Shown here in pieces: positions 28,890 through 31,389 of a stretch of 64,000 nt of DNA. Origin of the DNA: Pocillopora damicornis. Taxonomy: Eukaryota. Numbering within the stretch: position 1 is the stretch's first letter; each line of letters opens with the position of its first letter. A program made the position numbers and the translations under genes. The stretch covers positions 1 to 64,000 of the forward strand of contig NW_020846073.1 of the NCBI RefSeq assembly GCF_003704095.1. The letters run 5' to 3'. The notes beneath the pieces were generated by a model, which had not been told where the DNA came from, searched no databases, and worked only from the letters and a program-made list of their open reading frames with translations.

Positions 28890-28907
28890 ATACTTACCTA
28901 ACGCGGG
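28890..28907 (+). ncRNA. U1 snRNA 5' end (nt 1-18) with putative native upstream flank
   Basis: ..GAAAAAGC|ATACTTACCTAACGCGGG; retains the AT start absent from the post-oligo(A) copies. Confidence 0.75.
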
Positions 28908-30953
28908 TTAAACCTTCGTCTTAGTATCGTACGTGGATTTGCAGGTTCACAAGCGTGTTGGATAAAGAAGCAGGATTATTGTGAGTATTATTGCGTCCTG
29001 GTTTTTTGGCTGCTTTTCTGGTGACCCTCCCAGGGACTTATGCTCGGCTTCTCGCCGTAACCTGGGGTAAGCCAGTCTTTGGTTGTTTTCCAATCTTAGA
29101 TTGGATTGGCTTTTCTTCTTGGCTTTTTTGGCGTGTTGAGTTTGGCGATTTGTCAGCTCACAGGTTTTTGCCGGTTTTTGGTCACCCATCCATTTTTGGG
29201 TTTTTGTTGTTCTTTTGCCATGGTTTTGGAGTGCGTTAAGACATGTGTAATTCATGCGTCGGAGATGGTGGCAAGTTATGATAAGGCTCGTGTGGTTACG
29301 CTCCTTAGGGAGTGCATTGATTTTGAAGGGCTTTCTGCCATTCAGTTTTGCCCCAGGGGTTTGATACGTGTTACCTTCAAGAATGCCTCGGACAAAGAGG
29401 AATTTGTGCGTGTTGGCTCGTTAACGTTGGATGGGCACGATCTGAGCGTGACCTCTTCAGATATGCCGCATTCTTTGGTTTACGTGCATTATTTTCCTGC
29501 CGAGGGTGATGATGCTCTGATTCGTGATGAGCTGGGTAAATACGGTGATGTTATTAGTATTAAACATCAGAGTTTTTCGAGAATTCCGGGCCTTCTCACT
29601 GGGTCACGTATTCTCACGATGGTATTGTCGGATCCAGTTCCTGCGGAGTTCCGTATTGACGACTACCCTGTGCGGGTTTGGTATAAAGGTATCCCTCCGT
29701 TCTGTCAGATTTGTAAAGCTAGTGGTCATAAGGCGGCGGATTGTCAGTTTAATGGAAAGTGTAGGAGGTGTGGCTCCCCAGACCACAAGGCGCATGCGTG
29801 CGTCCGGCCGTGGGGTCAGTCTGCTGTACCAATGGAGGCGGCTGTCCCTGAGGTGGTCCCTGACCCCTCTGGGGCTGTTGTGCCTGTTATCTCTGATAGT
29901 TCTGCCGATTTGGATAAGGGTGTGGATGGTGTGTTTGAAGATGCGGTTGTGGAAAATGAGGTTGCGGATGAGGACGCGGATGATGAGGATGCGGATGTGG
30001 AAGATGAAGTTCCTGTTAGTACCCCTGTGGGGGTTCCTGTCCCTAGTTCAGTTAATGCCCCTGTTGCAGTGGGGCCTGCCCCCTCGGTTCCTGTTGTGAC
30101 TAAGGAGGTGCAGGCCCCCGCGGTTTCTGTTGGCTCCTCCGGTTCTCCTGTGAGGTCCTCCGGTTGGGGTTGGGGGACTCCTTCCCCCTCGTGTGTTGCT
30201 GCAAGTGTTTCCGCTACCTTGGATGATCGTAGGAAGGTTTCGGAGTGGTATCTGGATGAGTTATGTCACTGTTCTAAGGATGAGGCCTTTGTTCTGTCTT
30301 ACAGGGATATGAGGGTGAGTGAGGTTTTCCCTTCCTGGTTTTTGGAGGTTTTGATAGTTTTGGTGAATGGGGCGCGTCTCAGGGTGCATCCAAATGTTCT
30401 TCGTATCACTAAAGTGGATACGAGTGGTGAACAGTCTGAGGTGGAGTTTGCGCAGTATATTCTTAAGGTAATGGAGGACCCTTCCTTTTGGATTGGTTTT
30501 AGGGGCTCTCTTGTTGACAAGATTGGTCCTACGATGCATGATAACGTTTTGTGTGTGGAATTTGAGGACCTCTCTGGTCCGCAATCTCGGAGGCTTCCCG
30601 CCAAGGCTTTGTGGGTTAAGAAGGCTCCGGTTAGTAATAATGCCAGTACCAATGTAGATAATAGTGTAATTAATATTGTAAATGATAGCGTAACTAAGTC
30701 TCGTTCTGTGGTCCCTACTGCTGCAGTTCTTGCTGCGGAGTTGCTGAAGCGTGCTGCCCCCACTTCTACTGTGGGAGTCCCGAAATGTAGCAAAAAGTTA
30801 TAATACAAACGTCAATAGATAATGTAAATAATAATGTAAATGATAGTTTTTTTTCTGTGTTTTTGTATCCGTTTTGTTCGTTTGTTGTTTGGAGCGGGTG
30901 TGTTCAATTTTTGGTGTGAGTGTGTTCAATGTTTGCGAGGTGGGGTTCGATTC
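28908..30953 (+). mobile_element. Family G ORF1-only (HAL1-like) Tx1-derived element
   Basis: 5' UTR, intact ORF1, then the conserved 3' tail about 70 bp after the stop; no ORF2. Confidence 0.8.
29220..30803 (+). CDS. Family G ORF1p, uninterrupted 527 aa (RRM-like, 2 CCHC knuckles, acidic linker, duplicated C-terminal domain)
   Basis: VRVWYKGIPPFCQICKASGHKAADC, CRRCGSPDHKAHAC; no stops or frameshifts. Confidence 0.88.
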   Translation: MVLECVKTCVIHASEMVASYDKARVVTLLRECIDFEGLSAIQFCPRGLIRVTFKNASDKEEFVRVGSLTLDGHDLSVTSSDMPHSLVYVHYFPAEGDDALIRDELGKYGDVISIKHQSFSRIPGLLTGSRILTMVLSDPVPAEFRIDDYPVRVWYKGIPPFCQICKASGHKAADCQFNGKCRRCGSPDHKAHACVRPWGQSAVPMEAAVPEVVPDPSGAVVPVISDSSADLDKGVDGVFEDAVVENEVADEDADDEDADVEDEVPVSTPVGVPVPSSVNAPVAVGPAPSVPVVTKEVQAPAVSVGSSGSPVRSSGWGWGTPSPSCVAASVSATLDDRRKVSEWYLDELCHCSKDEAFVLSYRDMRVSEVFPSWFLEVLIVLVNGARLRVHPNVLRITKVDTSGEQSEVEFAQYILKVMEDPSFWIGFRGSLVDKIGPTMHDNVLCVEFEDLSGPQSRRLPAKALWVKKAPVSNNASTNVDNSVINIVNDSVTKSRSVVPTAAVLAAELLKRAAPTSTVGVPKCSKKL

Positions 30954-31271
30954 NNNNNNNNNNNNNNNNNNNNNNNNNNNNNNNNNNNNNNNNNNNNNNN
31001 NNNNNNNNNNNNNNNNNNNNNNNNNNNNNNNNNNNNNNNNNNNNNNNNNNNNNNNNNNNNNNNNNNNNNNNNNNNNNNNNNNNNNNNNNNNNNNNNNNNN
31101 NNNNNNNNNNNNNNNNNNNNNNNNNNNNNNNNNNNNNNNNNNNNNNNNNNNNNNNNNNNNNNNNNNNNNNNNNNNNNNNNNNNNNNNNNNNNNNNNNNNN
31201 NNNNNNNNNNNNNNNNNNNNNNNNNNNNNNNNNNNNNNNNNNNNNNNNNNNNNNNNNNNNNNNNNNNNNNN

Positions 31272-31389
31272 CTCGCCGTAACCTGGGGTAAGCCAGTCTT
31301 TGGTTGTTTTCCAATCTTTGATTGGATTTGCTTTTTTCTTGGTTTTTTGCCTGTTGAGTTTGGCGTTTTGTCATCTTACGGGTTTTTGC
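31272..31389 (+). mobile_element. 5' UTR of a second, tandem family G copy
   Basis: Matches 29051-29170. Confidence 0.85.

What the first reader, a model, noticed from the sequence alone, without database searches (positions are those of the whole stretch)
28890..31389. ORF1-only (HAL1-like) U1-headed element with an intact ORF, in tandem
Seen: U1 5' end, 5' UTR, intact 527-aa ORF1, then the conserved tail with no ORF2. After a 318-N gap the same 5' UTR resumes. The rest of the tail (16849-17001, 153 nt) plus the head (28892-29050, 159 nt) total 312 nt, close to the gap size. Inference: the gap holds tail+A+U1 16-mer+head, and family G is a non-autonomous parasite using the ORF2p of A/B/H. 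Its intact ORF amid decayed neighbours suggests recency or selection.
Basis: partly seen in the sequence, partly recalled or inferred. Interest (0 to 1): 0.75.

Follow-up and report, generated by a model that had tools for sequence, protein, structure and literature searches.

The report
Coral ORF1-only retrotransposon with swappable domain
This looks like a short jumping gene, probably from a stony coral, that has lost its copying enzyme but keeps an intact RNA-packaging gene with an extra, exchangeable protein domain, and most likely spreads by borrowing the enzyme of longer relatives that share its ends.

Summary
Observation confirmed: U1-like 5' end at 28890, 330-nt leader, intact 527-aa ORF1, tail 74 nt after the stop with no ORF2, 318-N gap, then a 91%-identical leader fragment. 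It is a family, not a one-off deletion: 69 of 117 listed homologues lie on 1.9-2.6 kb contigs and none at 5.5-6.0 kb, against 4 and 9 of 44 for an ORF2-bearing neighbour family. New here: the ORF1 (two RRM-like domains, zinc knuckles) carries a tandem SH3-like barrel domain found in 118 of 119 homologues, absent from autonomous relatives, and exchanged between subfamilies. Corrections: only 10 nt are verified as U1; the U1 piece may be target site as much as head (3 of 3 complete tails in the window abut it); a neighbouring ORF1 is also intact; G's ORF1 is not derived from the window's U1-headed families; the second copy shows only 118 nt. Verdict: HAL1-like in operation, Tx1-type in origin, not HAL1 proper. 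Trans-mobilisation is inferred, not shown. New variant of a known kind; interest 0.6.

The parts
28846..28889 (+). 44-nt upstream flank; not a tail; imperfect inverted repeat of 28881-28899, so it could sequester the U1-like end; unique in the window
   Evidence: 11 of 2000 shuffles of the flank fold as well
28890..28899 (+). U1 snRNA 5'-end decamer (nt 1-10)
28892..28950 (+). Head homologous to three heads of ORF2-bearing families: single-stranded U1-like piece, hairpin, invariant TAGTATC (28922-28928)
28890..29219 (+). 5' leader, 330 nt
29220..30803 (+). Intact ORF1, 527 aa (P0001)
29220..29816 (+). N-terminal two RRM-like domains and CCHC zinc knuckles (residues 1-199; ZCCHC3-like architecture, type I ORF1)
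   Evidence: (zf-CCHC E 0.0019, below cut-off)
29817..30215 (+). Acidic/Pro/Val-rich linker, length-variable among homologues
30216..30623 (+). Family-specific tandem helix + five-strand SH3-like barrels (residues 333-468); exchanged between subfamilies
30702..30803 (+). Conserved C-terminal motif of ORF1p and stop
30804..30877 (+). 74-nt AT/T-rich spacer where ORF2 would start; 30823-30846 repeats ORF1 30665-30688 (22 of 24)
30878..30953 (+). First part of the shared 3' tail, with T-loop-like hairpin start
30954..31271 (.). 318-N gap; predicted content 312 nt (rest of tail, A-run, U1-like piece, head)
   Evidence: inference
31272..31389 (+). 118 nt of the leader of a second, diverged family copy (91%)
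16773..17001 (+). 5'-truncated G-type tail with A-run, joined to the U1-like head of another family at 17002; holds the two TGCAC stem-loops
42561..42760 (-). Homologous tail at the 3' end of an ORF2-bearing element, abutting a U1-like head at 42560
55768..55883 (-). Third complete tail end, abutting a U1-like head at 55767
47923..48329 (-). Broken ORF1 fragment of the nearest autonomous lineage (49% to P0001)

Best explanation
A family of about 2.2-kb non-autonomous, ORF1-only non-LTR retrotransposons of Tx1 type, probably from stony corals. Shown: the unit has the head and tail of ORF2-bearing neighbours, one intact ORF1 and no ORF2; the ORF1 has gained a tandem SH3-like barrel domain. Inferred steps: (1) the unit is transcribed from the U1-like 5' end (own promoter, a U1 gene promoter, or read-through in arrays); (2) ORF1p binds its own RNA through the RRM/CCHC part and co-assembles with helper particles; (3) helper ORF2p of a co-tailed Tx1-type family recognises the shared tail and primes reverse transcription at the U1-like motif; (4) because every copy brings that motif at its 5' end, copies stack head-to-tail and interleave with other families. 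The barrel cassette is most likely a protein- or nucleic-acid-binding specificity module that is reshuffled under conflict with helpers or host.
For: No ORF2 after the stop. Contig lengths: 69 of 117 G homologues at 1.9-2.6 kb and 0 of 117 at 5.5-6.0 kb vs 4 of 44 and 9 of 44 for the control ORF1 family; short class 76 of 119 has median 597 non-coding nt vs 633 predicted from the window and occurs in 10 of 11 barrel subfamilies. A Pocillopora damicornis gene model holds two ORF1 pieces on a 5,213-bp contig, too short for two 6-kb elements. 'Longer' search found 1 protein among 489 candidates, a 51%-identical sister without the barrels. Head and tail homology. 3 of 3 complete tails abut the U1-like piece at nt 3. 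113 of 119 family proteins end in the same motif. Barrels in 118 of 119 G homologues and 0 of 79 controls; N-terminal and barrel identities nearly uncorrelated, Spearman 0.12 over 7021 pairs.
Against: 23 of 119 G contigs leave room for an ORF2 and 6 of 117 have 3.6-4.6 kb extra (control 10 of 44). Rows are not independent, so the Fisher P values overstate the case; only 119 of 255 non-self hits were listed. The 3' end and any target-site duplication of this copy lie in the gap. All ORF2s in the window are broken, so no active helper is seen. Tail structure shows no compensatory change (0 pairs, n=4); head hairpin covariation is not beyond shuffles (67 of 500). Barrel function is untested.
Confidence: 0.72

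Rival explanations
1. The U1 piece is not a carried head but the target: these Tx1-type families insert just inside the 5' end of real U1 genes, duplicating about 9-16 nt, and use the U1 promoter; 28846-28889 would be U1 gene flank. Compatible with ORF1-only status; it changes the mechanism of expression and targeting.
For: 3 of 3 complete tails are followed by U1 nt 3 onward; the one U1-like site not preceded by a tail has nt 1-2. A parallel exists in the window: U2 nt 1-29 heads another family at 22354, 25431, 55149 and a shorter U2 piece sits between two of its copies at 62728-62741. U2-targeting Tx1 (Keno) is known (PMC4494074, PMC4640811).
Against: No U1 body anywhere in the window. The flank is an inverted repeat of the U1-like end, odd for a promoter. 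G has A at nt 11 where U1 has G. The piece pairs with element sequence, with 2 two-sided changes in 4 heads (not significant). Carried U1 heads on Tx1 families are documented in crocodilians (PMC4494074).
Confidence: 0.4
2. Mixed family: some G subfamilies are autonomous (ORF1 with barrels plus ORF2) and the short form is their abundant deletion derivative.
For: 6 of 117 G contigs have ORF2-sized extra length, four of them at 5.2-5.4 kb.
Against: No peak at the full-length size seen for the control; short form in 10 of 11 subfamilies down to 32% barrel identity; no fused barrel-ORF1/RT protein found (the tool calls this weak evidence).
Confidence: 0.2
3. A domesticated or co-opted host gene family (ZCCHC3- or L1TD1-like), perhaps a dominant-negative restrictor of Tx1 elements, amplified by tandem duplication.
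For: Intact, strongly conserved N-terminal part (median 88-93%); ZCCHC3-like features; ZCCHC3 suppresses L1 (search listing and abstract starts only); fast, mosaic barrel cassette fits host-side conflict too.
Against: Keeps both retroelement ends; a truncated G-type tail with A-run sits at an insertion-type junction (16773-17001); lies in a transposon nest; many divergent subfamilies.
Confidence: 0.1
4. One-off internal deletion, or a short-read assembly chimera, of an ordinary autonomous element.
For: Gappy scaffold (11 gaps); low-complexity junction; only one junction seen in the window.
Against: Contig-length contrast and size match; own cluster has 160 member sequences; family-specific domain absent from ORF2-linked relatives.
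Confidence: 0.05

Closest known systems
HAL1 (half-L1), with HeT-A and Ag-Sponge: ORF1-encoding non-autonomous LINEs (PMC5753468, PMC5786205, passages)
   Same: Keeps both ends of an autonomous LINE, encodes only ORF1p, needs ORF2p in trans.
   Different: Those derive from L1, Jockey and CR1 clades; this has an RRM-RRM-CCHC ORF1 of Tx1-type relatives, a U1-like 5' end and an added tandem barrel domain.
U1-headed Tx1-Mar families (Tx1-2_Crp, Tx1-2B_Crp, Tx1-4_AMi) and SINEU (PMC4494074, parts 1-4 of 5 read)
   Same: U1-derived 5' end on Tx1-linked elements; tandem insertions; trans-mobilisation by Tx1.
   Different: Crocodilian, inserted in Mariner-N4; Tx1-Mar encode ORF2; SINEU are short and non-coding. 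Here the 3' ends abut the U1-like piece itself.
Keno, U2-gene-specific Tx1 (PMC4494074; PMC4640811 section 6 and passages)
   Same: Tx1 clade, snRNA 5'-region junctions, present in cnidarians.
   Different: Targets U2 and is autonomous. PMC4640811 (2015) lists only Keno and Utopia (U2) and the DNA transposons Dada-U1 and Dada-U6 as snRNA-targeting.
P0213, Stylophora pistillata gene model named 'Transposon TX1 uncharacterized 149 kDa protein'
   Same: Nearest ORF2-linked ORF1 (51% over 185 aa; clade with G 100/100); its ORF2 part is 54-67% identical to ORF2 pieces of the co-tailed families.
   Different: Has endonuclease and RT pieces, lacks the barrels; it is a spliced prediction whose first 400 residues look unrelated.
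ZCCHC3 (papers seen as listing and abstract start only)
   Same: Two RNA-binding domains plus CCHC knuckles.
   Different: A host gene (recalled: single-copy in vertebrates); no retroelement ends or barrels.

Membership tests
HAL1-type ORF1-only non-autonomous LINE (broad sense) | Encodes ORF1p only, no ORF2 | tested here: met
   for this copy; indirectly for the family (23 of 119 contigs leave room for ORF2)
HAL1-type ORF1-only non-autonomous LINE (broad sense) | Keeps 5' and 3' ends of an autonomous counterpart | tested here: met
   last 153 nt of this copy's tail are in the gap
HAL1-type ORF1-only non-autonomous LINE (broad sense) | Propagates as a multicopy family in the short form | tested here: met
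HAL1-type ORF1-only non-autonomous LINE (broad sense) | Mobilised in trans by ORF2p | not testable with these tools
   inferred from shared tail
HAL1-type ORF1-only non-autonomous LINE (broad sense) | A-tail and target-site duplication on the copy | tested here: inconclusive
   A-run on the 97%-identical tail at 16773-17001; this copy's 3' end is in the gap
HAL1 proper | Derived from L1, with L1-type (coiled coil, RRM, CTD; Transposase_22) ORF1 | tested here: not met
   Pfam gives only zf-CCHC; architecture is type I as defined in PMC4120745
Tx1 clade | ORF1 with RRM and CCHC domains | tested here: met
   PMC5203782 passage
Tx1 clade | Partner ORF2 with apurinic-type endonuclease and RT | tested here: met
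   Exo_endo_phos and RVT_1 in neighbours and P0213; G itself has none
Tx1 clade | RT phylogeny within Tx1 | not tested
   no reference RT set on hand; the label rests on the NCBI name of P0213
Tx1 clade | Sequence-specific insertion | tested here: inconclusive
   3 of 3 complete tails abut the U1-like piece; no empty site or U1 body seen
SINEU / U1-headed Tx1-Mar | U1-derived 5' end | tested here: inconclusive
   10 of 10 nt match human U1 nt 1-10, 4 of 8 beyond; no coral U1 sequence available; Rfam silent
SINEU | Short (under about 500 bp) and non-coding | tested here: not met
   2.2 kb with a 527-aa ORF
Keno | Flanked by U2 snRNA gene fragments | tested here: not met
   U2 pieces head another family at 22354, 25431, 55149, not G
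Tudor / KOW / Sm-Hfq small beta-barrels | Structural or sequence match to one named barrel family | tested here: inconclusive
   best Z 4.9 (rmsd 3.6, 65 aligned, unknown-function protein) and 4.7 (TDRD3 Tudor, rmsd 2.8, 54 aligned); Tudor, KOW, Hfq rows tied; Foldseek no E<=0.001
Domesticated ORF1 gene (ZCCHC3/L1TD1-like) | Single-copy, syntenic, without element ends | tested here: not met
   second copy and tail copy in the window, element head and tail kept; synteny not testable

The most novel reading that the evidence does not exclude
A long-lived coral lineage of satellite retroelements that, with their Tx1-type helpers, insert at the 5' end of U1 snRNA genes or of each other's U1-like heads, mimic U1 at the RNA level (free 5'-splice-site-pairing end plus tail loops resembling the U1A site), and carry an exchangeable tandem SH3-like cassette in ORF1p that sets helper or host-factor specificity: a parasite-of-a-parasite arms race written in a swappable domain.
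Probability: 0.25. Interest if true: 0.82.

Novelty: new variant of a known kind. Interest (0 to 1): 0.6.

Why it matters
ORF1-only LINEs are described from the L1, Jockey and CR1 clades (PMC5786205); why they keep ORF1p is open. A Tx1-type case with hundreds of intact variants, a conserved RNA-binding part and a reshuffled extra domain makes that question testable: swap the cassette and measure trans-mobilisation. If the U1 junction is a target, these would be U1-specific non-LTR elements, which the 2015 survey in PMC4640811 does not list. I found no description of this family in ten library searches, but Repbase, Dfam and most subscription journals were not searchable and may already hold it.

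Tried and rejected
Rfam: no U1, no ribozyme, no significant match for head or tail; ARAGORN no tRNA, so the T-loop-like hairpin is not a tRNA gene. Genome-contig scans for host DNA carried in microbial assemblies: 0 of 40 candidate stretches confirmed, 0 matches. PDB sequence search with the family profile: 1 match at E 0.34, ignored. Pfam and Atlas give nothing usable for the barrels. No Foldseek match at E<=0.001 and no Z>=5 among 48,161 chains; an Sm/Hfq or Tudor assignment was considered and not made. The two barrels align only weakly (probability 43%, E 0.00025, 34 columns). Tail folding is not more stable than shuffles (z 0.43, 0.09, -1.35); ATTGCAC is not enriched window-wide (10 seen, 8.8 expected), and only the second loop has it in 3 of 3 tails. 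One search used a misregistered structure and is superseded; the 3-sequence consensus fold had 0 of 35 compensatory pairs. The K-family row was dropped from the tree (no alignment envelope). Tree support for G alone is 92/90, unstarred. Bao and Jurka 2010 was not held; supplements of PMC4494074 could not be read and may show head alignments bearing on the U1 comparison.

Full report
Setting. The window is a gappy eukaryotic scaffold (11 N runs) packed with broken non-LTR elements carrying apurinic-type endonuclease and RT domains. The only named homologues of the finding's protein are from Pocillopora damicornis and Stylophora pistillata, so the host is probably a stony coral (inference).

Observation. 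All coordinates hold: U1-like decamer at 28890, ORF 29220-30803 of 527 aa, tail from 30878 with 97% identity over 76 nt to 16773-16848, 318-N gap, and a 118-nt leader fragment at 91%. In the two neighbour families ORF2 starts within 10 nt of the ORF1 stop; in G an AT-rich spacer and the tail follow. The sum 153+159=312 is right, but another sized gap seems off by about 50 nt (my arithmetic), so the match is consistent only. The second copy's coding content is unseen. The neighbour ORF1 at 20179-21630 is intact too.

One-off or family. A search with the protein gave 256 hits, of which 120 were listed, nearly all unnamed ENA proteins of 446-607 aa; the query's own cluster has 160 members. No DNA context is given, but contig lengths are. 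As control I searched with the ORF2-linked ORF1 at 20179 (79 hits). After dropping the self row and proteins under 450 aa (2 of 119 and 35 of 79), 69 of 117 G proteins lie on 1.9-2.6 kb contigs and none at 5.5-6.0 kb, against 4 of 44 and 9 of 44 for the control. The control peak is the size expected of a full two-ORF element (inference), which supports reading contig length as unit length. The short class (76 of 119) has a median of 597 non-coding nt; the window predicts 633. It occurs in 10 of 11 subfamilies defined on the barrel domain. A Pocillopora gene model joins two ORF1 pieces on a 5,213-bp contig, which fits 2.2-kb spacing.

The protein. Residues 1-199 look like two RNA-binding domains plus CCHC knuckles, type I ORF1 in the scheme quoted in PMC4120745 (passages). 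Residues 333-468 fold with pLDDT 92.5 into two units of one helix and five strands. Structural hits are all small SH3-like barrels (Tudor, KOW, Hfq, PWWP) at Z 4.9 or less, so no family can be named. The domain is in 118 of 119 G homologues, 0 of 79 controls and not in P0213; only 14 of 1.84 billion representatives match it, and those read or already known are G-type pieces (8 of 14 read, 1 more is P0004). Median pairwise identity is 88-93% in the N-terminal part, 60% in the linker, 48% and 65% in the barrels, 88% at the C-terminus. N-terminal and barrel identities are almost uncorrelated (Spearman 0.12, 7021 pairs): P0002/P0066 are 96% and 41%, P0071/P0119 81% and 89%. The cassette is therefore exchanged between subfamilies; conflict as the cause is inference.

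Origin. A tree of the N-terminal part (37 rows: 21 of 120 G proteins, 14 autonomous, 2 sister) puts G with P0213 and a window fragment at 47923-48329 (100/100), far from the ORF1s of the window's U1-headed families (32-34% identity; a long-branch warning concerns row w17274). P0213's ORF2 part is 54-67% identical to ORF2 pieces of those families and 33-49% to the U2-headed family.

Ends. The head is homologous over about 60 nt to three other heads (pattern 4 matches, 0 by chance). Against human U1 (PMC2213330, one table) only nt 1-10 are verified. In the three other heads the U1-like end stays single-stranded before a 10-pair hairpin; across the four heads 94.7% of cells pair, with two two-sided changes, but 67 of 500 shuffles do as well. 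The invariant TAGTATC equals part of the U2 consensus printed; this may be chance. All 3 complete tails end in an A-run followed by U1 nt 3 onward and the head of an element; at 28890, the one site without a tail, nt 1-2 are present. That is the pattern of site-specific insertion, either into U1 genes or into U1-like heads; no U1 body is in the window. The 44-nt flank folds back on the U1-like end (11 of 2000 shuffles) and is unexplained. The tail has a T-loop-like hairpin and two TGCAC stem-loops resembling the U1 stem-loop II loop, which binds U1A (PMC10379813 passage); pairing is 93% but without covariation (n=4). Likeness to the U1A polyadenylation-inhibition element is recalled, not tested.

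Mechanism. Most likely a non-autonomous retroelement: transcription from the U1-like end, ORF1p packaging in cis and co-assembly with helper particles (proposed for HeT-A-like elements in PMC5786205, passage), tail recognition by helper ORF2p, priming at the U1-like motif, hence head-to-tail arrays. Anatomy and family-level ORF2 absence are shown or well supported; transcription, trans-mobilisation, helper identity and barrel function are inferred.

Known systems. It works like HAL1, HeT-A and Ag-Sponge (PMC5753468, PMC5786205, passages) but is not HAL1 proper. U1-headed Tx1 families and SINEU are known from crocodilians (PMC4494074, parts 1-4 of 5). PMC4640811 (passages and section 6) lists no U1-targeting non-LTR element as of 2015; PMC8869645 (passages) covers U1-targeting DNA transposons. 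PMC5203782 was seen as passages; ZCCHC3 and L1TD1 papers as listings only. Ten searches found no account of this family; Repbase and Dfam were not available.

Verdict. Real, and richer than reported: a Tx1-type ORF1-only family with a U1-like junction and an exchangeable barrel cassette. New variant of a known kind; interest 0.6; best explanation 0.72.

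Noticed in passing
window 22354-22382 (+), 25431-25462 (+), 55121-55149 (-), 62728-62741 (+): U2 snRNA 5' fragments (about nt 1-30) head a second Tx1-like family; a shorter U2 piece lies between two of its copies. Keno-like, but the junction is near nt 29-32, whereas Keno/Utopia 3' flanks start at nt 39.
   Followed up: partly
window 22280-22353 (+), 55150-55240 (-), 39378-39481 (-): A conserved block of about 100 nt precedes two U2 heads and stands alone once; candidate U2 promoter or another element end.
   Followed up: no
window 28846-28899: Upstream flank is an imperfect inverted repeat of the U1-like end, including a 5'-splice-site-like GGTAAGT.
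   Followed up: partly
window 17165, 20050 (+), 55581, 4669 (-); 28981 and 29064 (+) in G: Leaders carry conserved 5'-splice-site-like motifs (GTGAGT, GGTAAG) complementary to the U1-like head.
   Followed up: no
window 56320-56690 and 57076-57174 (-): Three further partial tails without 3' ends; two follow the 3' end of an ORF2-bearing family.
   Followed up: partly
window 16761-16774 and 62609-62626 (+): TAGTATC repeats in the 3' UTR of the U2-headed family; the truncated G-type tail is joined at one of them.
   Followed up: no
window 20179-21630 (+): Intact 483-aa ORF1 whose ORF2 is cut after about 30 codons by another sequence; used as control.
   Followed up: yes
window 42805-43029 and 57202-57336: Tandem repeats of about 55 nt in the 3' UTR of ORF2-bearing families, upstream of the shared tail.
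   Followed up: no
window 13384-13429 (+): Histone 3' UTR stem-loop at the Rfam gathering score, with no histone ORF noticed beside it.
   Followed up: no
window 15058-15350 vs 15574-15866; 28388-28745 vs 35628-35988: Near-identical inverted duplicates beside 100-N gaps (96% and 98%); possible assembly duplication.
   Followed up: no
window 5653-5753: Long imperfect inverted repeat (miniature-element-like); only weak Rfam miRNA hits.
   Followed up: no
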